This document shows positions 1 to 28,060 of a stretch of 64,000 nucleotides of DNA, in pieces. The notes under the pieces were generated by a model that was not told the DNA's origin, ran no database searches, and saw only the letters and a program-made list of their open reading frames with translations. Location of the stretch: the NCBI GenBank assembly GCA_963662545.2, contig CAXXLL010000003.1, positions 2,528,001-2,592,000 of the forward strand. Direction: 5' to 3'. This DNA is from Gammaproteobacteria bacterium (GTDB taxonomy: Bacteria; Pseudomonadota; Gammaproteobacteria; Ga0077536). Position 1 is the first letter of the stretch; every line of letters starts with the position of its first letter. A program made the position numbers and the translations under genes.

Positions 1-344
1 TCGAGTCTGACATACAAGCCTGGTTGCAACAACAAATCGACGCGACACGGAAAAATGAGCGCGTAAGTCGTCGGCCGGGCGGATCTGCCAGCCCGGTGGA
101 ATAGACCCTGGACTTACGGAAACCCACCGTACCCAGTCGAAAGACCTGGACGGGATTGAGGAATGGAAAGCATCGTTCGCCGGCATAGCGTAGCGCCCGT
201 TTTTGATGGCGAAGGCGCAAGAGGCTGGGCCGCGAGTGAGATTGCGACGCTCGACACCGTTCGCATAGCGGGCAAAACGGACGTAGAGAGTCGTGCCTTG
301 GCGGCCAAGCTCCAAGCCACCCGCAAAGCTGTGAAGCGGAGGTA

Positions 345-14150: not shown

Positions 14151-14384
14151 GTCCGCTATGCCGCCGTAAGCAGCCACGTCATGCTGCACTGCAGGAGTCC
14201 GCTATCGACCCAGACTGTGTGAAAACTCAATAATACGACGTCGAAAGTAAAAAATTCCCCACCAGCATAGTAGTTAAGCACCATGAAAAGGGATCAGCAC
14301 ATCGCATTAATACACTTCCGAGTGTCGGTTCCCCACTTTTGAAAAACGCAAATAGTTTTCACACAGTCTGGACCCTGAGCAGAC
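14151..14384 (-). repeat. Composite palindromic module-boundary repeat, copy 1 (split by a miniature IS)
   Basis: GTCCGCTATGCCGCCGTAAGCAGCC, then a GCTGCACTGC spacer, then GTCCGCTATCGACC[insert]CTGAGCAGAC. Confidence 0.75.
14211..14370. mobile_element. MITE with IS1182-like ends
   Basis: TIRs CAGACTGTGTGAAAACT / AGTTTTCACACAGTCTG, flanked by a GACC 4-bp duplication. Confidence 0.8.
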
Positions 14385-14444: not shown

Positions 14445-14942
14445 TCAGACATCGCCATCGTCGTTTAGCTCCCTATCTACAGCTACAACGAATTCAGGTG
14501 AAATACCGGAGACGACCGGGCTTGCTTTTTGCCACTCCTGAATAGCCAAGGGATTCTCTTTGAGAACGCCAACCAAATGTATGACGCTTATTGATTCTTC
14601 GTATCCAGCCGTTCCGTGCACTACGCTTCTGTATGATGTTGCCGCTGCAAGGAATAAATCCTGAAAGCAGATAGAAAACAGAATCTGTTCATCTTCGGAC
14701 AGTTCTTCATCGTGTCGCGCGCGGACCATGATCTTTGCCAGTTCGGGAGTACCCAGTACGGCGCGGCGCCAGTCCGAATACATTCCTACCGCAGTGGCTG
14801 TTCCTTGTTGGAACGCATGTTCAGATGTTTCTTCTACGGCTTTTCGCGTCAATCGCGTCTGAATGGATAAGTAAATTAGAGTAATGATGATCGCTATTGC
14901 GCCAACAACCTCCGCAATAGTTCCTAACGCATCCCAGTTCAT
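14445..14942 (-). CDS. Cassette protein, MNWDA family with N-terminal TM helix, paralog 1
   Basis: MNWDALGTIAEVVGAIAIIITLIYLSIQ. Starts 15 bp after an attC GTTAGGC. Confidence 0.8.
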   Translation of the reverse strand: MNWDALGTIAEVVGAIAIIITLIYLSIQTRLTRKAVEETSEHAFQQGTATAVGMYSDWRRAVLGTPELAKIMVRARHDEELSEDEQILFSICFQDLFLAAATSYRSVVHGTAGYEESISVIHLVGVLKENPLAIQEWQKASPVVSGISPEFVVAVDRELNDDGDV

Positions 14943-15082: not shown

Positions 15083-15553
15083 TCAACGTATTTGGTAATC
15101 TGCGACTTCTAAGCCGTTAACAAACTGCTGAAACTTGGTGTCAAAATTTTTGCTTCTCAACGACCACGCTCGCTGGAGTCCTGGATGACTATAGATGGTC
15201 GAGTAATACTTAACCATTGCATCCCAACTACGAGCGTCAAGCGTTCATTCGTCGTGTTGTATATATGCTTCCTCCCAGGCCCGAAATACGCCTCCGGCAA
15301 GGATTAAGAACCGTGTTGTCTCCGCGTCGGTTAGGTCGTCGTAGCTATCAACCGAACGAGCCCATATTTCTGACATATCCTCGGTCGCGAATTTCGCAGT
15401 CACTTCGCGGAAGCCCACGGAGATGTCGTGCATTGCCGCGAGACGCGATTCCTTGTTCTGATTTCGTATCTGAGTAGCGAGATAGATAAGCGATACGATT
15501 ACTCCTCCGGCACCGAGTATTTCCGCAATTGCTCCTACAGCATCCCAATTCAT
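15083..15553 (-). pseudogene. MNWDA-family paralog 2 with an in-frame TGA at 15245-15247
   Basis: The frame continues past the stop as TLDARSWDAMVKYY...HPGLQRAW... to TGA at 15083. Confidence 0.75.
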
Positions 15554-15614: not shown

Positions 15615-15755
15615 GACTGGAACTGGCCGACTGCCGTCGTCATCAGTTAACACGTCAGTGAACGCAACACCACGACCGCTTCCGAGCGCATTGCAGACGT
15701 AACCGAGAGCAGTGCTGCACTGCCGCGATCAGGCCGGAAACGACCCACAGCAGCC
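15615..15755 (-). repeat. Composite boundary repeat, copy 2 (three sites)
   Basis: Minus strand GGCTGCTGTGGGTCGTTTCCGGCC / GTCTGCAATGCGCTCGGAAGCGGTC / GACGGCAGTCGGCCAGTTCCAGTC. Confidence 0.75.
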
Positions 15756-15821: not shown

Positions 15822-16490
15822 TCATCGATTTAATCCGAACATTAAAAAGACGAAGCTAAGGAATGCAATAGAAACCATCAAAATGAGGATGCATTGGAAT
15901 ACGAACGCTGAGTACGGCTCCATATAACCAAGCACAATCGCGCCTTCCACGACGACTGCCGTCATTCCGAGCAGGGCGAAAAGTCGCATGATCGAACGTT
16001 GGGGCTCGGGCAGCAGTTCAAGAAATAAACCGGAACGCAGCATAAACGGTATTGACACAACCCAAGCTATAACATGAGCAACAATTAGTACGCGGAATGA
16101 CCACTTCCACATATCGCCTTCATTCTCGGTAATAAGGGCGACAGTTCCCGGGATGAAGGAAGCGAACACTGCAAAAGCAGTAACGACTAAGAGCGTTGCT
16201 GCAAGCGCGACCTCCGGTCCGGTCAAGCTTTTGCCGCCGCGTAATTGTATAACCCCGATTATCCCGGTAAATCCCATAAGCGTTATCGCGATCTGCAAAC
16301 GAGAACTCCTCGTCAGACGCAACGCGGCGCGGTTACGACGGCCGCGCTCGCGGTCCAATGCGATCGGTTAGTTAATGGAACATTCCTTAAGCCGGCAGTG
16401 AAGCCGTGGATCAGGGAGTTTTCGAGGCCACAGAGGGTCTCATGCCGTCATCGCTAAAGTCTGAAAGTCTGCTGCAATCGCGGGGTCCAT
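15822..16490 (-). pseudogene. Multi-TM membrane cassette protein (paralog of 26170..26679), interrupted by a ~155-bp insert
   Basis: Likely true start MDPAIAADFQTLA at 16490, 7 bp after GTTAGGC. It joins QIAITLMGFTGIIG if ~16298-16452 is removed. Confidence 0.65.
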
Positions 16491-18222: not shown

Positions 18223-18678
18223 CTAAGCATCATTTAGCAGGTTTTCGATATAGGCTCTCATCGTACTCGACACATCTTCTCGAGCGCTCGTTCCCCACCA
18301 TTCTTGAACTCCTTTTGTGCCAAACAAAAACCGGAGGTTTTTGTCGCAGCCCGCTAAGATAGCCGGTGTTGTAGCCTCCGGCGCACCGACAAGCAGTTCA
18401 TAAACCATCATGCGATCTAACATCCAGTATGAGAAAGAAATTTTCTCTTCTTCTGTAAGCTGTTCGAAGCTTTCCTGACCTCTTTTGAGAACGCCAGCCA
18501 TATACTCACTTAATGGTCCTACGTTGGATTGCGACATTCGGTCACTCAGTGCAGCAAAAGTCTGTGCCTTGACCGCGCTAGTATTCTGGCGAATTTGTAG
18601 GGCCAAGAATATTAGCGATGCAACAACGGCGAGTGCGCCAATTAGATCGGCCCAATCTGCTATGGTGCCAAAATCCAT
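18223..18678 (-). CDS. MNWDA-family paralog 3
   Basis: MDFGTIADWADLIGALAVVASLIFLALQIRQN, GVQEWW, AGGAG RBS. Confidence 0.8.
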   Translation of the reverse strand: MDFGTIADWADLIGALAVVASLIFLALQIRQNTSAVKAQTFAALSDRMSQSNVGPLSEYMAGVLKRGQESFEQLTEEEKISFSYWMLDRMMVYELLVGAPEATTPAILAGCDKNLRFLFGTKGVQEWWGTSAREDVSSTMRAYIENLLNDA

Positions 18679-19855: not shown

Positions 19856-20069
19856 ATCCACCCTGTCTTAACCCGCGACTTCAGCCCGGACTTACCGGCG
19901 CCGAGGTCGCAAGCGGATCAGGTGGGCGGACACCGAGACTGATTAAGATCGAACGGTGCCGCATTTGATTAGAACCTATCCTCCCTGAATTTCAGTTCCG
20001 GATTGCGGAGCCTATTCCGACACGTCCGCGTGCGAACAGCAGCTATACCGTTTCAATCAACGAAACGTG

Positions 20070-20500
20070 CTGTCATTCCTGACACCGAGGTGCCGGTCCG
20101 TCAATGGGTCGTGACCTTCCCGCATGCCTTGCGGTTTCTCTTCGCCAGCCGCCCAGGGGTCATGGGCCGGGTGTTGGCGATCGTCTACCGCACGCTGGCG
20201 ACACATCAGCGACGCAAGATGGGATATACGCACCGCCAGCACCGGCGCGGTCACCCTCATCCAACGCTTCGGCAGCGCGCTCAACGTCAATATCCACTTT
20301 CACATCCTGATGCTGGATGGTGTGTATGTCGCCACCGACAACCGACTCAGCATCAAGCGCGTGAAGGCACCCGACAAGGCCGAGCTCGAAGCCCTCGTGC
20401 GTACCATCAGCGAGCGCGTGGGTCGCCACCTCGAACGCGAGGGTCTGCTGGTTCGCGATCTGGACACGAGCTACCTCGCGCTCGAACCCCACGATGACGC
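20070..20500 (+). pseudogene. IS91-family (HUH) transposase fragment, frameshifted
   Basis: PVRQWVVTFPHALRFLFA in one frame and TGAVTLIQRFGSALNVNIHFHILMLDGVY in another. Confidence 0.8.
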
Positions 20501-20512
20501 AAAAAAACCTGG

Positions 20513-20642
20513 GCATGGCCGCTCATGGCCGACAGCCGTGGTCCTCGGTTAACACGTCACCGAACACTGCCGCACGACCGCTTATGAGGTAACTCCAGAC
20601 ATAATCCTTACCAGTGCTGCATTGCCGCGATAAGGCCGCTGA
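20513..20642 (-). repeat. Composite boundary repeat, copy 5
   Basis: GGCCGCTCATGGCCGACAGC ... GACCGCTTATGAGGTAACTCCAGAC ... GCTGCATTGCCGCGATAAGGCCGCTGA. Confidence 0.7.
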
Positions 20643-20703
20643 GCAGGGGGACGCTGACGCGCAATACAACGTGGGCAACATGTACCACAAAGGCAAAAGA
20701 GTT
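20632..20703 (+). pseudogene. Single Sel1-repeat fragment
   Basis: Translates as KAAEQGDADAQYNVGNMYHKGK. Confidence 0.65.
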
Positions 20704-20809
20704 ATGAGGGTCTACCTTCGGAATTAGCAGGTAGCGGCACCGGTCAGTGCCACTGATGTCCGATGCTGGAATGTGAGAACTGACCCTTTTGGTGACCTTT
20801 TGGATGACC

Positions 20810-20989
20810 GTGCACGCCCACGAACGCATGGAGGCCATCATCGACGCTGGCATCGGTGAGATCTCGCTGGTAAGCATCATGCCGGGCCTGCCGCAGGATA
20901 AGATACTTGATTCTTTGCGGCTCTTCGCCGCCGAGGTGATGCCGCAGTATGCGGAACCGGCGGTGAGTAAACTTCAACAGACCGGTTAG
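20810..20989 (+). pseudogene. LLM-class flavin oxidoreductase C-terminal fragment
   Basis: PGLPQDKILDSLRLFAAEVMP. Confidence 0.6.
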
Positions 20990-21045
20990 TCGCGATGCCG
21001 GGAGCTGAAGCGTGCGCCATTCGCTCGCATTCTTAGGAGGTAGCC

Positions 21046-21822
21046 ATGGACTTTACCGATAAGCGCATTGTGATCACCGGCTCGTCACGTGGCATCGGCC
21101 GAGCGGCGGCCGAAGTACTACTGGCGGCCGGCGCGACGGTCACGGTCAACGGCCGAACTGAGGCGTCGACGCGTGACGGGATCGCGGCAATGGGCGGTGG
21201 TGACCGATTGATCGCGGCGCCGGGCGATGTGGCGACCGTGGCCGGCTGCGAGGCGATCATCGGCGTCGCAGCCGAGGCCATGGGCGGGATCGACGTCCTT
21301 GTAAACGCCGCCGGCATTGCTACGTTCATCACTCTCGAAGACAGTACGGAGGCGCTGTGGGATGCGACCGTGAATACCAACTTGAAAGGCACGTTCTTCT
21401 GCTGTCGAGCGGCGCTACCGCATTTGACCGCATCCAAGGGCAACATCGTCAACGTCGGATCGGACGCGGGATTGATCGGGGAGGCGGGGCTTGCGGCTTA
21501 CGGCGCATCCAAGGGCGGCGTTATACAACTCACCCGCGCACTCGCCCTGGAGCTGGCGCCCGACATTCGGGTCAACTGTGTGTGCCCGGGCAATGTCGAC
21601 ACCGACATGCTGCGCCGCGACTACATCGATCAGGCCGACGACCCGGCCGAGGCGGAAGCCGAAATCATCGCTTCTGCGCCCTTGCAACGCATCGCTGAGC
21701 CGCTAGAGATCGGTAAGGCGATTGCCTACTTTGCGAGCGACGACGCGGTGTTCGCAACGGGATCGATCCTGTCGATCGACGGTGGCACAACCGCGTGTAA
21801 CAACGCAACGGGGGACGAATAG
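21046..21822 (+). CDS. SDR family oxidoreductase
   Basis: TGSSRGIG, VNAAG, YGASK, AGGAGG RBS. Confidence 0.92.
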   Translation: MDFTDKRIVITGSSRGIGRAAAEVLLAAGATVTVNGRTEASTRDGIAAMGGGDRLIAAPGDVATVAGCEAIIGVAAEAMGGIDVLVNAAGIATFITLEDSTEALWDATVNTNLKGTFFCCRAALPHLTASKGNIVNVGSDAGLIGEAGLAAYGASKGGVIQLTRALALELAPDIRVNCVCPGNVDTDMLRRDYIDQADDPAEAEAEIIASAPLQRIAEPLEIGKAIAYFASDDAVFATGSILSIDGGTTACNNATGDE

Positions 21823-21836
21823 GTTCTAAACCGATC

Positions 21837-22022
21837 ATGATCCCGTTTTAAGTGCTCGACCTCGCGCCGATTGTCGCGGGGAGCGATGCGGCGTAGGCCT
21901 TTCGCAACTCGGTCGGTCTCGCGCAGCGCGCCGAACGCTGGGGATATCAGCGCTACTGGTTCGCCCAGCACCACAATATGCCCGGTATCGCCAGTTCCGC
22001 CACGGCGGTGGTGATCGGCTAT
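21837..22022 (+). pseudogene. Luciferase-like monooxygenase N-terminal fragment with two in-frame stops
   Basis: [54 protein letters not shown]. Confidence 0.75.
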
Positions 22023-22047
22023 CGCCCGCGGATAGCCCGTGGATAAG

Positions 22048-22116
22048 GTCAGTTCTCACATTCCGACATCAGCGCCATCTGCGCAGTGTAGGAATGTGAG
22101 AACTGACCCTTTTGGT
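22048..22116. repeat. REP-like inverted repeat, with one arm also present at 20768
   Basis: GGTCAGTTCTCACATTCC ... GGAATGTGAGAACTGACC. GGAATGTGAGAACTGACCCTTTTGGT recurs at 20768-20793. Confidence 0.7.
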
Positions 22117-22268
22117 CTTCTTTTGGTCTTTCGCAGACCCAAAGCGGAAGTTCGGGGCTAAAGGTGGCGAATTTTTATACTCACGTCATTAGCTCAAATA
22201 AATCTGTCCCTGAAGGCTCCCCACGAATTGAAGGAGAATTCACATAAAAAATAGCCATTTAGAAAAAT

Positions 22269-23653
22269 GGGTCTACGCGGATTCATGTGGGTAAATTCTG
22301 AATTAGACCAAGTGTAAACCATTGAAATCATGTAGACATTCAGAGATTTCGTATGGGGTGAAAGTGGTTTCATTTTGTGGGTAGGCTAAGGCCATGAAGA
22401 ATCCCAAGTCGATCCGAGCGCTGTTTGCGTTCCCTGGTTTTACCGCCGCATCGAAATTGGTGGGCATGTTTGGTGATCGGTATGCCCGTGTGATCCAACT
22501 CAAGAGGCGAAAAAAACAGCGATCTGTTCTCACTGTGCTCACCGGTGCCGCGGGCGTTACGACAAGAAGGTGCTGCGAGTACGAGACCTGTCAGTTGCCG
22601 GATGGCGAATCTACCTGGAGTTCGAACGCTGGCGTGTCAGTTGCCGGAGGTGCGGCGGCGTGCAGGTAGAACATCTTGACTGGCTGGCAAAGAACCCTCG
22701 CTATACGCAGCGCTTTGCCATGCAGGTGGGCAAGCTGTGCCGGGACATGCCGAACCAGGCTGTCGCCGAGAGGGAACGCCTGCACCACAGCACGGTGAAA
22801 GACCTCGATAAGCTGTACATGCAAAAGCAGGTTGAGCTGGCGGGCATGCCAGCACCCCGGGCCATCGGTATTGATGAGATCTCCATCCGCAAAGGACATA
22901 ACTACCGGGTCATCGTCAGTGACCTGGATCGGGGGCGTCCTATCTGGGTCGGTGGTGAAGGTCGCAAAGAGGCTGACATCGACCTGTTTTTCCAGGCATT
23001 GGGCGAGAACAAGAGCGCTCGCATCGAACTGGCGGCGATGGACATGTGGAAGCCGTTCCGTAACTCGGTCATGAACAACGCACCGCAGGCGCGGATCATC
23101 TATGACAAGTTCCATATCATGCGCCACCTCTCAAAGGCTCTCGATGAAGTCCGGCGCCGTGAATACAAACGTCTCCGCGGCAAGGACAGGAGTTACATCA
23201 AAGGCCAGCGATATACCTTGCTCTCGCGACGCGAGAACCTGAATCTGGATGGCAGACGAGCCCTGAAAAAACTGCTCCAGGCCAACCGGCGTCTGAACAC
23301 CGCCTACGTCCTCAAGGAAACCTTCGGCCAACTCTGGGACTACCGTACCGAGCGCGGCGCGCGTGCCTTTTTCGAGCGCTGGAAGGACAGTCTGAAATGG
23401 CAGCGATTGGCGCCGTATCGCAAGTTTGCTGAGCTGATTGAATCCCATTGGGATGGCATTGCTTCCTATTGTGATGCTAAGAATAAAGTCAGTCTTGGAT
23501 TGGTCGAAGGGGTCAACAACAAAATCCGGGTCCTGCAACGACGCGCCTATGGCTATCGTGATGAGGAATTCCTCAAACTGAAAATCATTGCGGCATTTCT
23601 TCCGCCACTACCCAGAAATGCCAATATCAACCCACACGTTTCCGCGTAGACCC
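22269..23653 (+). mobile_element. ISL3-family insertion sequence
   Basis: TIRs GGGTCTACGCGGA..TGTGGG / CCCACA..TCCGCGTAGACCC. No target duplication visible. Confidence 0.9.
22394..23649 (+). CDS. ISL3 transposase, probably expressed via a -1 frameshift at A7 (22510-22516)
   Basis: IGIDE, MDMW, DKFH, EGVNNKIRVLQRRAYG. A -1 shift joins ...LKRRKK to the zinc-finger TAICSHC. Confidence 0.85.
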
Positions 23654-23770: not shown

Positions 23771-23911
23771 GTCCGGAAAGGGTCGTCAGCGGCCTAATCG
23801 CCGCAGCGCAGCACTGATTAGCGTTTTGTCTCCTATGCGCTCGGAAGTGGTCGTCCGGTAGCGTTCAGCGTCACGAGCATAATGAGCGGCGGCGGTCGGC
23901 CGATAGCGGAC
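23771..23911 (+). repeat. Composite boundary repeat, copy 6 (uninterrupted reference copy)
   Basis: GTCCGGAAAGGGTCGTCAGCGGCC / GTCTCCTATGCGCTCGGAAGTGGTC / GGCGGCGGTCGGCCGATAGCGGAC. Confidence 0.8.
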
Positions 23912-23972: not shown

Positions 23973-24501
23973 ATGAACTGGGATGCTATCGGTGCTTTGA
24001 GTGAACTGCTCGGTGCAACAGCAGTTGTTGTGTCAATAATCTATCTCGCACTACAGGTGAGACAAAATTCGAGCCATGTCCGCAGTAGCGGGTATCAGAT
24101 GGCGGCTCAATCGGCAAATCACTTTTTGGAAAGTCTATCGGCGCACCCTGAGGCGTTGAAGGTTTTCCACGCGGCTCAGGAGTCCTATGACGGCCTAGAC
24201 GACGACGATCAACTCGTAGCTCGAACAGTATTCTTGCAACTGTTCATCTATTACGAAGCTTTGTTTTACCAGTATGAAGACCGCGTCGTGGATCTCGATA
24301 TCTGGGAGGTTTTACCAGTATGAAGACCGCGTCGTGGATCTCGATATCTGGGAGGGGCGAAGGAAGATGATGCTCAACCTCCTACAAATGCCAGGCGTAG
24401 CGTCATGGTGGGGAACCTGGCGACCAATCTTTGGCGCGAAATTCCAGTCGTACGTCGCGGAGAACATGGAATCACCGAGTGATTTGCATTTGACATTTTG
24501 A
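23973..24501 (+). pseudogene. MNWDA-family paralog 4, frameshifted by a 46-bp tandem duplication
   Basis: MNWDAIGALSELLGA. GTTTTACCAG...TCTGGGAG is repeated at ~24263-24354. C-terminus PGVASWW lies in another frame. Confidence 0.8.
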
Positions 24502-24867: not shown

Positions 24868-25338
24868 ATGAATTGGGAAGCGGTTGGAGTAATTGTAGAA
24901 ACAGTCGGAACGATTGTTGTCCTTGTTACCCTAATTTACCTGTCAATGCAGATTCGACTAGCGCGTGAAGAATCGCAAGTACAGAGCACATATTCTTCGG
25001 TAAATCTATGGGCTAATTGGCGTTCACACTTAATCAACAACCCTGATATTAGTGAGCTTATAGAGAAAGCGAATGAAGGCCAGGATCTATCTAAAGCGGA
25101 AAAACTTCGAATTTCGACTTTTATGGACGAATTCATATTTACGTCCTATGCCTCCCACGCAACAAGTCAGAAAGGCAACCCACTATATACACGCGATGCA
25201 GAGGTCGAATATTTGGTCGGTTTTCTGGAAGCGAATCCAGGGTTGGAATCTCACTGGGAAAGGCTTCGGGATTATGTTGACGCGTGGGACCCCGAATTTT
25301 CGAAGAAGATAAGAATCCGGCGGGACGAGGTTGACTAA
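24868..25338 (+). CDS. MNWDA-family paralog 5
   Basis: MNWEAVGVIVETVGTIVVLVTLIYLSMQ. Preceded by GTTAGGC at 24845. Confidence 0.8.
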   Translation: MNWEAVGVIVETVGTIVVLVTLIYLSMQIRLAREESQVQSTYSSVNLWANWRSHLINNPDISELIEKANEGQDLSKAEKLRISTFMDEFIFTSYASHATSQKGNPLYTRDAEVEYLVGFLEANPGLESHWERLRDYVDAWDPEFSKKIRIRRDEVD

Positions 25339-26169: not shown

Positions 26170-26679
26170 ATGGCTGTACCGGAAGACTTCTATGTCATTG
26201 CTCAGATCGCGGTCACCTTAATGGGATTTACCGGGATCGTCGGTGCTCTTCAGACCCGCGGAGGCGCAGTACTCGACGAACGAGAGAAGTTCCATATCGT
26301 TAATCTGCTAACGACTTCGACGCTTGTACTTTTTCTTGCCTTTGTTCCGACATGGCTGCAGTCGCTTCCTGGCAGTGACGAGAACCTTTGGGCGTGGTCA
26401 ATTCGAGTGCTCTTGGCCATACACATTTGCGCTTGGATAATTGCTATCCCAACATTCCAACGTGGGAGCATTTTCTTCAATCAGAAATACCGAGCATTTG
26501 AGCGGATGGCTGGATTGACAGTCGCAGTCCTTGGCGTTGTTGCAGTAGGTGCCGAACTTCTAATCGTGGGGGGGCATTACACCGAGTATTCGGTCTTTCT
26601 CTACGAAGGGGTGCTGTTATTGTTTGTGGCTGTATCGGTGTTTAATTTTCTTTCGCTCCTGATAAAGCCGTCGAGATGA
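26170..26679 (+). CDS. Multi-TM membrane cassette protein
   Basis: QIAVTLMGFTGIVG. Collinear similarity to 15822..16490. Confidence 0.75.
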   Translation: MAVPEDFYVIAQIAVTLMGFTGIVGALQTRGGAVLDEREKFHIVNLLTTSTLVLFLAFVPTWLQSLPGSDENLWAWSIRVLLAIHICAWIIAIPTFQRGSIFFNQKYRAFERMAGLTVAVLGVVAVGAELLIVGGHYTEYSVFLYEGVLLLFVAVSVFNFLSLLIKPSR

Positions 26680-26799
26680 ACCATTCGCCATAAAAGGCGT
26701 TCAACCTGACGCTTGACCGCGCGCTTCCTGCGCTGCCGCTTCGATAAGCCTTTATCGAGCACCGGTCAGCTTGAACGTTCGTGAAGTCTGCTATAGGGT

Positions 26800-27676
26800 G
26801 TGCGCCGTGCAAAGGCGGCGTTCTTCAGTGGGTGCAAGTCCCACCCGGCAACTGTCGCTCCAGCCGGAAGCAATCGGAGCAGTCATGGAGGTAACAAGAT
26901 GGCTGAAGCCTTCGGTGTAGAGGGTCACTAGGTGACTTGGCGAGTGTGCAGGCCGTAAGGTGAGTGAACGCTGAGCAAGCCTCGAAAAGGACGATGCACG
27001 TGCCGACCGGTCAACCCCTATCGGGAAGGCTGAAAGGGCTGGGGAAGCGAGCGATGAGCGCACCCAGTCGGCGTGCCGGGGTAGTGGCGATGGCATGTAC
27101 ACAGAGGAGAACGCGCGCAACACGGGAAGCCCGATGGCGTGGTCGGTCGTGGCGATCAACCGGAGACCGGTGACGGTCAGAGAGGGCGCTATGGGGTGGC
27201 GGAGAGGCCCGTAGTACTGAGGAAGCCGGGTAATGCTGGTGGAGGGAAGGGGCCTTAGTTCAAGACGGGCACTGAAAGCGGCAAAGCACAGGAGATTGGG
27301 GCAACCCTAGGCAACTCCGGTAAGGTGCGGGCGCGGTGGAAGGCGTCACATGTTGAAGCGAAGGAAGAACCCGGATTGCGATCTGGGAAGCGAATGCCCA
27401 CCCAAGTGGTGGCATTGGCGGTTGTGTGCAGAACGCTCGGTTCGTGCACGCCGGGATACACGGCCCGGTGTGGTGGGTCGGGTGAACTGCGGATGACCTT
27501 TCGTGTGCCAAGGCATGAGTCTTGTCCGAGAGCCGGATGCGGTAGTTCCGCCTGTCCGGTTCGATGAGGAGGATGTGGAAACGGAGTGATGGTCCGGCTA
27601 TTGAGGCACCGCCAGACGAAAGGGGCGGCAACAGATTGGCTGAACCTTAGACCACCGCGCCACATCCTTACTCTAC
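26800..27676 (+). ncRNA. Group II intron lacking an intact RT ORF
   Basis: 5' GTGCG. Domain V GAGCCGGATGCGGTAGTTCCGCCTGTCCGGTTC. 3' end CCACATCCTTACTCTAC. Only short IEP-like remnants (AKEEP) in domain IV. Confidence 0.9.
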
Positions 27677-28060
27677 CGTCAGCGGCCTAATCGCGGCAGC
27701 GCACACTAATTAGCGTTTTGTCTGCAATGCGCTCGTAAGCGGTCGTCCCGCAGCTTTCAGTGGAGCGTTAGCTGAGCAGGGCGGGTCTCGGCCTATTCTG
27801 TTGAAAAAGTCCGATTCGCCGTCGGTCGCGACGTGTGCAGAAAAACCGACCGCGTAGGATCGCCTGTAAGCGACGATCGGCACTCCGGGAATGGTTTAGC
27901 GACCCCCAAATATATCGAAATCGTATGCGGTACGACTTTTTCAACACAATAGTCCGTCAGCGGCCGAATCGCGGCGGTGCAGCACCGTTAGAGTTTACGT
28001 CTGCAATCCCCTCGTAAGCGGTCGTCGAGATGCTTCAAGCGTCGAGTTGAGAGAGCACCA
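27677..28060 (+). repeat. Composite boundary repeat, copies 8 and 9 (first half-site at 26786-26799)
   Basis: CGTCAGCGGCCTAATCGCGGCAGCGCA...GTCTGCAATGCGCTCGTAAGCGGTC, and a second unit from 27952. Confidence 0.8.
27794..27951. mobile_element. MITE with IS5/IS1182-like ends
   Basis: TIRs TATTCTGTTGAAAAAGTC / GACTTTTTCAACACAATA, flanked by GGCC/GTCC. Confidence 0.75.

What the first reader, a model, noticed from the sequence alone, without database searches (positions are those of the whole stretch)
26786..27690. ORF-less group II intron inserted precisely in the centre of the boundary repeat
Seen: an 877-nt intron (GTGCG...CTCTAC, intact domain V) with only short IEP remnants. Removing it gives GTCTGCTATAGGGT|CGTCAGCGGCC, matching the uninterrupted site GTCCGGAAAGGGTCGTCAGCGGCC at 23771. 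Established: group IIC-attC introns target integron attC sites in the same way. Inference: this is an intron lineage specialised on this recombination site and mobilised in trans, which is independent support that the site is an abundant, conserved target.
Basis: partly seen in the sequence, partly recalled or inferred. Interest (0 to 1): 0.7.

Follow-up and report, generated by a model that had tools for sequence, protein, structure and literature searches.

The report
ORF-less group II intron in repeat
A real but protein-less group II intron sits at one fixed point of a repeat that fills this bacterium's gene arrays, because the repeat's edge matches the short target its whole intron family recognises by base pairing, not because the intron evolved for that repeat.

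Summary
Window 26800-27676 is an 877-nt group II intron: Rfam RF02003 scores 100.8 bits, and domains V and VI end exactly at 27676. The reverse-transcriptase (IEP) gene is deleted.

The genome holds three 100%-identical copies, two full and one lacking its 5' part. Each abuts a different copy of a ~120-nt repeat at the same junction, GGGT|CG. The repeat has 118 copies in co-oriented arrays.

Covariation across 51 full-length relatives from alpha- and beta-proteobacteria maps EBS1 (ACCC) to exon -4..-1, EBS2 (GGAC) to -13..-10, and probably EBS3 (G) to +1. The site satisfies all three.

- The relatives share the target motif AATGTCCGCTTTGGGT|CG but lie in unrelated flanks that lack the repeat.
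- The repeat is found only in this genus among the genomes searched; the intron only in this genome.
- The repeat is not a canonical attC.
- The intron is IIB-like (class E/F traits), not IIC.

The assembly contains no RT gene, so the trans-acting IEP is inferred and now missing. An IS5/IS1182-like IS with its MITEs and a 158-bp TIR element also hit the same junction; an IS91-like element hits the repeat's 3' end. Metatranscriptome contigs cover the intron interior but not the exons.

Verdict: an ordinary retrohoming mechanism in an unusual setting.

The parts
26786..26789 (+). IBS2 (GTCT), pairing with EBS2 GGAC; lies at -14..-11, one nt further from the splice site than the -13..-10 seen in relatives and in the C2 copy
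   Evidence: Sequence; EBS2/IBS2 register from covariation in 51 relatives; a DNA contig of run X5 lacks one letter at 26792, which would restore the usual spacing
26796..26799 (+). IBS1 (GGGT), last four bases of the 5' exon
   Evidence: Mutual information: exon -1..-4 with intron positions 215..218; variant pairs listed
26800..27676 (+). ORF-less group II intron, 877 nt, GTGCG...CTCTAC
   Evidence: three 100%-identical copies in the genome
26826..26963 (+). Conserved domain I core (Rfam group-II-D1D4-4, full-length match)
   Evidence: 100.8 bits, gathering 49
26989..26992 (+). EBS2 (GGAC, intron 190-193)
   Evidence: Paired with exon -10..-13 in 43, 50, 37 and 41 of 51 relatives; neighbouring positions pair in 3 and 9 of 51. 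GGTC goes with GACC in 7 of 7, AGAC with GTCT in 4 of 4, GGCC with GGCC in 1 of 1
27014..27017 (+). EBS1 (ACCC, intron 215-218) in the loop of hairpin 27008-27024
   Evidence: Top mutual-information columns for exon -1..-4; GCAA/TTGC, GTGG/CCAC, GGGT/ACCC, GCCA/TGGC, CCTC/GAGG, ACTC/GAGT, ACGT/ACGT variants
27084..27084 (+). Candidate EBS3 (G, intron 285), pairing with +1 C
   Evidence: C at this position in 8 of 8 relatives whose 3' exon starts with G; G in the other 43, of which 42 have +1 C. This is one lineage, so one evolutionary event; position 379 changes with it
27291..27374 (+). Remnant of the 5' end of the IEP ORF in domain IV (about 25 codons, with a stop)
   Evidence: blastn to the ORF starts of relatives, about 72-76% identity; frames
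27375..27501 (+). 127 nt in domain IV with no detectable similarity to relatives (the place of the ORF deletion)
   Evidence: Unaligned between 575 and 703; no blastn hit at E<=0.01; tblastx hits lie only on the opposite strand, E 7e-4 or weaker
27530..27562 (+). Domain V, AGC triad present, 5-nt terminal loop UAGUU
   Evidence: a 5-nt DV loop is described as a class E/F trait in PMC3753933 (passage read)
27566..27676 (+). Extended domain VI (the internal branch is shared with relatives); bulged A at 27670, 7 nt from the 3' splice site
27677..27797 (+). Copy of the ~120-nt repeat; its first base C is IBS3
   Evidence: nhmmer hit C3:2555677-2555797, 99.8 bits; alignment
23771..23906 (+). Uninterrupted site plus repeat copy used for comparison
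27795..27952 (+). 158-bp element with terminal inverted repeats (TIR element B), lying between two repeat copies; not part of the intron
   Evidence: Inverted repeats I24/I25; 6 full-length copies (one is the window's own) and 2 partial matches in the genome

Best explanation
This is a deletion derivative of an endonuclease-less, IIB-like group II intron with class E/F traits. It has lost its reverse-transcriptase/maturase gene. It entered this genome by horizontal transfer; its nearest relatives are about 78% identical and lie in alpha- and beta-proteobacteria. As an ORF-less RNA it retrohomed into at least three sites. Site choice follows the ordinary rule: EBS2 (GGAC), EBS1 (ACCC) and EBS3 (G) pair with exon -13..-10, -4..-1 and +1. 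The whole intron family prefers AATGTCCGCTTTGGGT|CG. The 5' edge of a genus-specific ~120-nt repeat carries nearly that sequence, so this genome offers dozens of good targets. Shown: intron identity, the three insertions at one junction, the EBS/IBS pairings, relatives in unrelated flanks, and absence of any RT gene in the assembly. Inferred: that an IEP supplied in trans did the mobilising and has since been lost or lies on an unassembled replicon; that the intron is now immobile; that it is transcribed with the upstream ORF and may still splice.
For: Identity. Three 100% copies, at the window, at C2:1634304-1635180, and at C3:14622-15128 (intron positions 370-877), lie in three different repeat copies whose 3' flanks differ from +3 onward. 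ORF deletion: the intron aligns at 1-575 and 703-877 to a 1986-nt relative that encodes a 441-aa RVT_1+GIIM protein without an endonuclease domain. EBS1, EBS2 and EBS3 covariation. Family target consensus from 51 relatives with no conservation beyond +2, and 0 repeat-HMM hits in 81 loci. A PWM built from the 23 relatives with IBS1 GGGT places repeat edges at 9 of the top 11 and 13 of the top 25 genome sites. Filled-versus-other comparison: near-identical paralogous units (99.7-99.8%) have a MITE instead of the intron at the same junction. The repeat is in 2 of 2 same-genus genomes and 0 of 38 others searched. The intron is in 0 of 60 relatives' genomes; four of them gave only matches of 63 nt or less. 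No RT or maturase gene. Precedent for ORF-less copies with one shared deletion spreading through a trans IEP: PMC2882425 (passages).
Against: No IEP source exists in the assembly (96.85% complete, 3 contigs), so the trans step is inference only. The window copy has IBS2 one nt out of register. EBS-IBS helices are short, 4+4+1 bp by covariation. The strong conservation of exon -9..-7 (GCT) is unexplained by pairing (3 and 9 of 51 paired). The intron deviates from relatives at 20 of 302 and 8 of 98 near-invariant columns, more than most relatives, and its DV loop differs from theirs (UAGUU versus GAGAU or GAAAU). It may therefore be decaying. Only 3 of 106 repeat edges are occupied, although 13-14 of the 62 empty ones satisfy IBS1, IBS2 and IBS3. 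The truncated copy also lacks 6 nt of its exon, so it may be a later deletion rather than incomplete reverse transcription. No ligated-exon junction was seen in any RNA or DNA contig. The close match between the repeat-edge consensus and the family consensus is left to chance plus ascertainment, which is not proven.
Confidence: 0.8

Rival explanations
1. One reading: an intron lineage specialised on this recombination site, recognising it as IIC-attC introns recognise attC (a structured single-stranded site), and kept mobile in trans.
For: 3 of 3 copies are at one junction. The junction is also used by an IS5/IS1182-like IS with its MITEs and by a 158-bp TIR element. The repeat-edge consensus equals the family target consensus at 17 of 18 positions. 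A published case places class E intron fragments in a CALIN (PMC7923331, abstract and sections 7 and 12).
Against: Relatives carry the same EBS and the same target motif in unrelated flanks. The motif is rare in their hosts. No hairpin covariation in the site. Hairpin enrichment in relatives' exons is 9 of 49 against 10.4% in controls, p=0.06. EBS2 is present, unlike IIC. There is no RT gene in the genome. The intron is absent from the two same-genus genomes that do have the repeat.
Confidence: 0.08
2. The copies spread at the DNA level, by gene conversion or recombination between repeat copies or by segmental duplication, with no retromobility in this genome.
For: Arrays contain large recent duplications, for example units 100% identical between C2:2578-2585 kb and C3:910-916 kb. 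No RT gene is present.
Against: The three copies are 100% identical, whereas their flanking repeat copies share only 70% mean column identity and differ from +3 onward, and the 5' flanks are unrelated apart from the target motif. The near-identical paralogues of two intron-bearing units lack the intron. The insertion points are exact splice junctions with matching IBS.
Confidence: 0.05
3. The ORF-less intron is kept because its RNA does something for the host or the array, for example as a stable ribozyme or RNA that shapes expression of neighbouring units, rather than being a stranded parasite.
For: Metatranscriptome contigs from 3 runs (at most 3 samples, 2 studies) cover the intron interior 26968-27623 with 2-4 differences but none of the flanking exons. 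In the DNA run, flanks and interior have similar depth. A second, unrelated ORF-less intron also persists in this RT-free genome.
Against: Contigs cannot show RNA ends, strand or level. Three genomic copies against one of each flank could bias assembly. Conserved intron parts also recruit contigs from other organisms. The intron is in one genome only. The copies are identical, which means recent, so no selection can be read.
Confidence: 0.07

Closest known systems
Group IIC-attC introns (e.g. S.ma.I2) of integrons
   Same: A group II intron found repeatedly at one point of the repeat that separates units of a gene array; endonuclease-less lineage. Source: Zimmerly & Semper 2015, PMC4424553, passages read.
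   Different: Those are class C and recognise a DNA stem-loop. Here EBS2-IBS2 exists, there is no hairpin covariation, and the target is not a canonical attC. The intron is in the sense orientation behind the upstream ORF; the antisense orientation of IIC-attC is from PMC7923331 section 7 and from recall.
Group IIB introns in integron arrays and CALINs of halophiles (UHB.I2; class E fragments H.ha.F1/F2), Sonbol & Siam 2021, PMC7923331
   Same: Non-IIC, En-minus introns within cassette arrays, one in the same orientation as the cassettes and just after an attC; class E fragments in an array that lacks an integrase (abstract and sections 7 and 12).
   Different: Those arrays have IntegronFinder-type attC sites and the class E copies are 5'-truncated. 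Here the full ribozyme is present without its ORF, the repeat is not an attC, and target choice is explained by EBS/IBS.
ORF-less TeI3 introns of Thermosynechococcus elongatus, Mohr et al. 2010, PMC2882425
   Same: [quoted passage not shown]
   Different: T. elongatus keeps several IEP-encoding introns that drive the ORF-less ones. Here no RT or maturase gene is found in the assembly.
C.te.I1 of Clostridium tetani, an ORF-less bacterial intron in a genome without an IEP gene
   Same: ORF-less intron with no related IEP in the genome. The 2015 review calls this the sole known exception among bacterial ORF-less introns (PMC4424553, passage).
   Different: C.te.I1 lies between coding frames and splices alternatively (PMC4024640, search listing only). 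This intron is intergenic, multi-copy and clearly a recent ORF deletion.
RmInt1 / RmInt2 of Sinorhizobium meliloti homing into IS elements; REP sequences as IS targets
   Same: En-minus IIB introns that multiply because their homing site lies in a repeated mobile sequence (PMC5894124, passages). Intergenic repeats acting as shared targets of several mobile elements, including 2 of 9 P. putida intron copies (PMC1525189, table passage).
   Different: RmInt1 and RmInt2 are class D and carry their own IEP. Here the repeated target is an array repeat, not an IS.

Membership tests
Group II intron ribozyme | Conserved domain I core | tested here: met
   RF02003, full-length match, 100.8 bits against gathering 49
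Group II intron ribozyme | Domain V with AGC triad, followed by domain VI with a bulged A 7-8 nt from the 3' end | tested here: met
   RF00029 at 36.1 bits (below gathering 40 because of the long DVI) over 27528-27676; AGC at 27531-27533; bulged A at 27670; DVI extension shared with relatives
Group II intron ribozyme | GUGYG 5' end and AY 3' end | tested here: met
   GTGCG...TAC; the same ends in relatives
Group II intron ribozyme | Splicing activity | not testable with these tools
   No ligated-exon joint appeared in the contigs of 4 runs, which cannot show absence
Autonomous mobile group II intron (retroelement) | Intron-encoded RT/maturase ORF in domain IV | tested here: not met
   Only ~80 nt of the ORF start and the last few codons remain; no RVT_1 or GIIM hit anywhere in the genome; tblastn best E 0.13
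Bacterial class E/F (IIB-like, En-minus) introns | 5-nt loop in domain V instead of a tetraloop | tested here: met
   UAGUU here; GAGAU or GAAAU in 32 of 52 sequences tallied; trait as stated in PMC3753933
Bacterial class E/F (IIB-like, En-minus) introns | IEP with RT and X domains but no D/En domain | tested here: inconclusive
   True of a relative's 441-aa IEP (RVT_1 + GIIM only); this intron has no IEP
Bacterial class E/F (IIB-like, En-minus) introns | Phylogenetic placement of IEP or ribozyme with reference members | not tested
   No reference sequences of named classes were at hand; class D is not excluded by any test made here
Group IIC-attC introns | Class C ribozyme lacking EBS2 | tested here: not met
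   EBS2-IBS2 covariation; best Rfam D1-D4 family is D1D4-4; ribozyme part about 700 nt
Group IIC-attC introns | Target is an integron attC (R''/R' boxes, imperfect palindrome) | tested here: not met
   The genome's own integron attCs read GCCTAAC...GTTAGGC and fold into a long hairpin. The repeat has neither box. Arm pairing of at least 8 of 9 bases is seen in 12 of 62 copies, against 12.6% of shuffled sequences. No covariation
Integron cassette array (for the surrounding repeat arrays) | Adjacent integron integrase | tested here: not met
   Two TIGR02249-positive intI genes, at C2:996723 and C3:1527239, are not next to any array. Tyrosine recombinases inside the arrays belong to IS91-like elements

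The most novel reading that the evidence does not exclude
The junction GGGT|CG may be the working site of an unrecognised cassette-array system. It has 118 units, occurs only in this genus among the genomes searched, and is distinct from the genome's classical integron. The site would be regularly nicked or single-stranded. That would explain why three unrelated mobile elements converge on the same few bases (a IIB-like intron, an IS5/IS1182-like IS with its MITEs, and a 158-bp TIR element) while an IS91-like element targets the repeat's 3' end. On this reading the match between the intron family's target and the repeat edge is not chance, and the two ORF-less introns persist as expressed RNAs in an RT-free genome.
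Probability: 0.15. Interest if true: 0.75.

Novelty: new member of a known kind. Interest (0 to 1): 0.4.

Why it matters
This is a clean natural example of how a group II intron with a fixed, short base-pairing target can colonise a repeat family once a genome happens to multiply that target. It also shows what is left when the driver protein disappears: identical ORF-less copies, one truncated copy, and many good sites left empty. Bacterial ORF-less introns in genomes without any intron RT are described as very rare in the 2015 review (PMC4424553, passage read). This genome has two unrelated ones. The work also corrects the attractive attC analogy: relatives in unrelated flanks show that the specificity is inherited, not evolved for this repeat. 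The more intriguing object is the repeat itself. Its 5' junction is a shared hot spot for several mobile elements, and its function is unknown.

Tried and rejected
1. Local hairpin at the site (GTCCGCT...AGCGGCC with the intron in the loop). Only about 55% of cells pair and there is no covariation (for -10:+8, C-G 20, C-C 8, G-G 8 of 61). Rejected.

2. The repeat as a ~150-bp palindrome with 26-nt arms, suggested by the consensus. At least 8 of 9 pairs are found in 12 of 62 copies, against 156 of 1240 shuffles, and RNAalifold gave no consensus structure on either strand. Rejected as a general feature.

3. Hairpin targets in relatives. Stems of 5 bp or more occur in 9 of 49, against 10.4% in control windows, p=0.06. 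An inverted partner of -16..-7 within 300 nt downstream was found in 2 of 48. Not supported.

4. Tyrosine recombinases near the arrays as the array recombinase. They are the first gene of IS91-like elements (Phage_integrase followed by Zn_Tnp_IS91 + Y2_Tnp) inserted at the 3' end of the repeat. Rejected as evidence.

5. Test of cassette-level exchange. One whole unit is shared between two arrays at about 95%, but the left break coincides with different MITE insertions and the right break lies inside the next repeat. Inconclusive.

6. Replication-strand bias. Local GC skew is +0.014, -0.008 and -0.019 at the three copies. Inconclusive.

7. EBS2 by simple complementarity scan. Too many G-rich matches. 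It was solved only by mutual information and inspection.

8. Metagenome scan for an exact 20-mer of the EBS1 hairpin: 0 hits.

9. Rfam at E<=1 on two repeat copies: nothing. blastn of one repeat against plasmids: nothing.

10. Read laying: no joint across 26799/27677, and no RNA contig on the exons. Contigs cannot show absence.

11. The RT found in same-genus genome G001 (451 aa) has no Rfam ribozyme in its locus at E<=0.01. It was not followed up as a donor.

12. Class assignment by literature. PMC3552965 and PMC5894124 did not name this family. Supplementary tables that list class D, E and F members could not be seen and may bear on the class.

13. In my notebook I wrote 14 of the top 25 PWM sites. 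A recount gives 13.
Full report
**What is there.** Window 26800-27676 (+) is an 877-nt group II intron. It starts GTGCG and ends CTCTAC. Rfam's group-II-D1D4-4 model matches 26826-26963 end to end at 100.8 bits against a gathering score of 49. The domain V-VI model matches 27528-27676 at 36.1 bits. Domain V (27530-27562) has the AGC triad and a 5-nt loop. Domain VI has a bulged A at 27670, seven bases from the end. The extended domain VI is shared with relatives, so it is a family trait and not damage.

**The ORF is gone.** Against a 1986-nt relative from a Paraburkholderia plasmid, the intron aligns at 1-575 and 703-877 at about 78%. That relative encodes a 441-aa protein with RVT_1 and GIIM domains and no endonuclease domain. 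Intron 492-575 corresponds to the first ~80 nt of relatives' ORFs, and the 127 nt in between match nothing.

**Copies and site.** The genome (3 contigs, 5.58 Mb, 96.85% complete) holds three copies at 100% identity: the window copy, C2:1634304-1635180, and C3:14622-15128, which covers intron positions 370-877. All three span the deletion junction, so the ORF was lost before the spread.
- Each copy is followed directly by a different copy of the same repeat. The 3' flanks begin CGTCAGCGG, CGATAGCCG and CGTGAGCCG and have 70% mean column identity.
- Both full copies are preceded by ..GTC(T/C)G(C/T)TAT(A)GGGT in otherwise unrelated sequence.
- An HMM of the repeat finds 118 copies in the genome. 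They lie in clusters with a single orientation each; the largest is 46 hits between C2:612993 and 749001.
- Ten copies are in the window. They are on the minus strand left of an IS cluster and on the plus strand right of it.
- Conservation starts at the insertion point. Bases +1 to about +120 are conserved. Upstream, only GGGT is strongly conserved (86-98 of 106), preceded by a weak (A)TG(T)CCGCT. The intron is therefore at the 5' edge of the repeat core, not in its centre.

**How the site is recognised.** I collected 80 loci encoding IEPs 81-95% identical to the Paraburkholderia one, mostly from alpha- and beta-proteobacteria. Of these, 51 introns had both ends cleanly mapped.
- Their 5' exons give the consensus AATGTCCGCTTTGGGT|CG, with no conservation beyond +2.
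- EBS1: mutual information between exon and intron columns puts exon -1, -2, -3 and -4 opposite intron 215, 216, 217 and 218. The loop there reads ACCC with exon GGGT, GCAA with TTGC, GTGG with CCAC, GGGT with ACCC, GCCA with TGGC, and so on.
- EBS2: intron 190-193 (GGAC) pairs with exon -10..-13 in 43, 50, 37 and 41 of 51 relatives, while the neighbouring positions pair in 3 and 9 of 51. GGTC goes with GACC in 7 of 7, AGAC with GTCT in 4 of 4.
- EBS3: position 285 is C in the 8 relatives whose 3' exon starts with G, and G in the other 43, of which 42 have +1 C. This is a candidate only, resting on one lineage.
- The window intron has GGAC, ACCC and G at these places. Its exons offer GTCT, GGGT and C, with IBS2 one base further out than usual. 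The C2 copy has the usual spacing. A DNA contig from a public run lacks one letter at 26792, which would restore the spacing.

**Is the lineage specialised on the repeat? No.**
- The 51 relatives share only the short motif, and the repeat HMM has no hit in the 81 relatives' loci.
- The motif occurs 0-5 times at one mismatch or fewer in four host records, with reversed-pattern controls at 0-2.
- Relatives' exons show no significant hairpin (9 of 49 against 10.4%, p=0.06) and no inverted partner (2 of 48).
- The repeat was found in 2 of 2 same-genus genomes and in none of 38 others searched. The intron was found in none of 60 relatives' genomes; four of them gave only matches of 63 nt or less.
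- So the repeat is old in the genus and the intron is a recent arrival whose inherited target happens to sit on the repeat's edge.
- A PWM from the 23 relatives with IBS1 GGGT ranks repeat edges at 9 of the top 11 and 13 of the top 25 sites in the genome.
- The consensus-level agreement is 17 of 18 positions and looks striking. However, non-repeat sites scoring 19-20 bits also occur in this genome. A chance match made visible by the intron's success is therefore plausible, though not proven.

**Is the repeat an attC or a recombination site? Not shown.**
- The genome has two true integron integrases above the TIGR02249 cut-off. One, at C2:996723, faces an array of classical attC sites reading GCCTAAC...GTTAGGC that fold into long hairpins. 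The repeat has none of these features.
- It shows no covariation for a local hairpin, no general arm pairing, no consensus fold, no Rfam match and no plasmid match.
- The tyrosine recombinases inside the arrays are part of IS91-like elements that themselves insert at the repeat's 3' end.
- A unit shared between two arrays did not give a clean break-point.

**The junction is a hot spot.** Of 106 repeat copies with an intact 5' edge:
- 62 have unique or unclassified upstream sequence;
- 36 abut the end of a 1.7-kb IS, whose DDE transposase matches DUF772, DDE_Tnp_1 and DDE_Tnp_1_6, or one of its ~164-nt MITEs;
- 5 abut a 158-bp TIR element;
- 3 abut the intron.

Two intron-bearing units have paralogues 99.7-99.8% identical in which a MITE sits at GGGTC| instead of the intron at GGGT|. 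This acts as a natural control showing independent, recent hits on the same bases. The same comparison shows that the truncated copy also lacks the last 6 nt of its exon. Of the 62 unoccupied edges, 47 keep IBS1 and +1 C, and 13-14 also keep IBS2. The intron stopped well short of saturation.

**Mobility now.** The genome has no RVT_1 or GIIM match, and tblastn with a relative's IEP gives nothing better than E 0.13. A trans-acting IEP is therefore an inference from the shared deletion, as argued for the T. elongatus ORF-less introns (PMC2882425, passages). It must have been lost or lie outside the assembly. The 2015 review states that bacterial ORF-less introns nearly always coexist with related IEP-encoding introns, with C.te.I1 as the sole exception (PMC4424553, passage). 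This genome also has a second, unrelated ORF-less intron at C2:445294-445949 (RF01999 115.7 bits and RF00029 54.9 bits).

**Expression.** Contigs from three metatranscriptome runs (at most three samples, two studies) cover 26968-27623 with 2-4 differences but cover none of the flanking exons. In a DNA run, flanks and interior have similar depth. This is a weak hint that intron RNA outlasts its exons. Contigs cannot give ends, strand or level, and no spliced joint was seen. The simple terminator scan found no terminator-like site between the end of the upstream ORF (26679) and the intron.

**Class.** The relatives' En-minus IEP, the 5-nt domain V loop and the ribozyme size fit the traits given for classes E and F in PMC3753933 (passage). 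I did not place the intron by phylogeny, and class D is not excluded. The intron differs from its relatives at 28 of 400 near-invariant columns and in the DV loop. That may reflect lineage distance or early decay.

**Verdict.** The mechanism is ordinary EBS/IBS-guided retrohoming of an ORF-deleted intron into a target that a genus-specific repeat has multiplied.

Noticed in passing
G000 C2:445294-445949 (L017 921-1576): A second, unrelated ORF-less group II intron of 656 nt (RF01999 115.7 bits, RF00029 54.9 bits). It sits right after the end of a copy of the 158-bp TIR element, beside a repeat copy in the opposite orientation. A 69-nt 3' fragment lies at C2:1713391-1713458.
   Followed up: partly
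whole genome; window copies at 15741, 16723, 18909, 20642 (-) and 23784, 24607, 27677, 27955, 29842, 38668 (+): The ~120-nt repeat has 118 copies in co-oriented clusters, separating units of 0.3-5 kb. It was found only in the same genus among the genomes searched. It is not a canonical attC and matches no Rfam family. Its function is unknown.
   Followed up: partly
e.g. G000 C2:2578477-2582341 (last 1.7 kb of the unit); window 14229-14354 region and 16745 onward: A 1.7-kb IS, whose 477-aa DDE transposase matches DUF772 and DDE_Tnp_1, and its ~164-nt MITEs insert at GGGTC| of the repeat edge, apparently duplicating GGTC. Together they occupy 36 of 106 repeat edges.
   Followed up: partly
window 27795-27952: A 158-bp element with terminal inverted repeats (GACTTTTTCAACA...) lies between two repeat copies. 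The genome has 6 full-length copies (one is the window's own) and 2 partial matches, and 5 repeat edges abut its end.
   Followed up: partly
L008 1322-3522 (G000 C3:6802 onward); L010 1322 onward: An IS91-like element, carrying a tyrosine recombinase gene followed by a Zn_Tnp_IS91 + Y2_Tnp transposase gene, is inserted at the 3' end of repeat copies (..GGCCA(A/G)(A/G)G|GACTAAACC). One copy is itself interrupted by another IS.
   Followed up: partly
G000 C2:985250-997664: A classical chromosomal integron: intI at 462.5 bits on TIGR02249, facing at least nine ~110-nt attC sites (GCCTAAC...GTTAGGC) with 27-nt inverted repeats. A second intI at C3:1527239 showed no repeated attC in the 22 kb upstream.
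   Followed up: partly
window 20003-23649: An IS cluster lies between the minus-strand and plus-strand halves of the array. It holds ORFs that look like IS91-type transposase fragments (20003-20552; recalled, not scanned) and a 359-aa ORF (22570-23649) that looks like an ISL3-family transposase (also recalled, not scanned). The layout suggests an inversion of half the array.
   Followed up: no
window 24263-24354: A perfect 46-nt tandem duplication at the 3' end of ORF 23973-24323, which probably disrupts its reading frame.
   Followed up: no
window 14445-14942, 15245-15553, 18223-18678 (-); 23973-24323, 24868-25338 (+): Array units repeatedly encode paralogous small proteins that start MNWDA.G...E..G with an N-terminal hydrophobic stretch. 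The ORF just upstream of the intron (26170-26679) has no Pfam family and has a paralogue at 15822-16358.
   Followed up: no
G001 C13:7172-7858 (L110 1135-2490, minus strand): A same-genus genome encodes a 451-aa group II intron-like RT, but Rfam finds no ribozyme in the 3.7-kb locus at E<=0.01.
   Followed up: partly
window 26785 and 26792: A DNA contig of public run X5 differs from the window in the 5' exon (A>T at 26785, one letter fewer at 26792). This would put IBS2 at the family's usual spacing.
   Followed up: no
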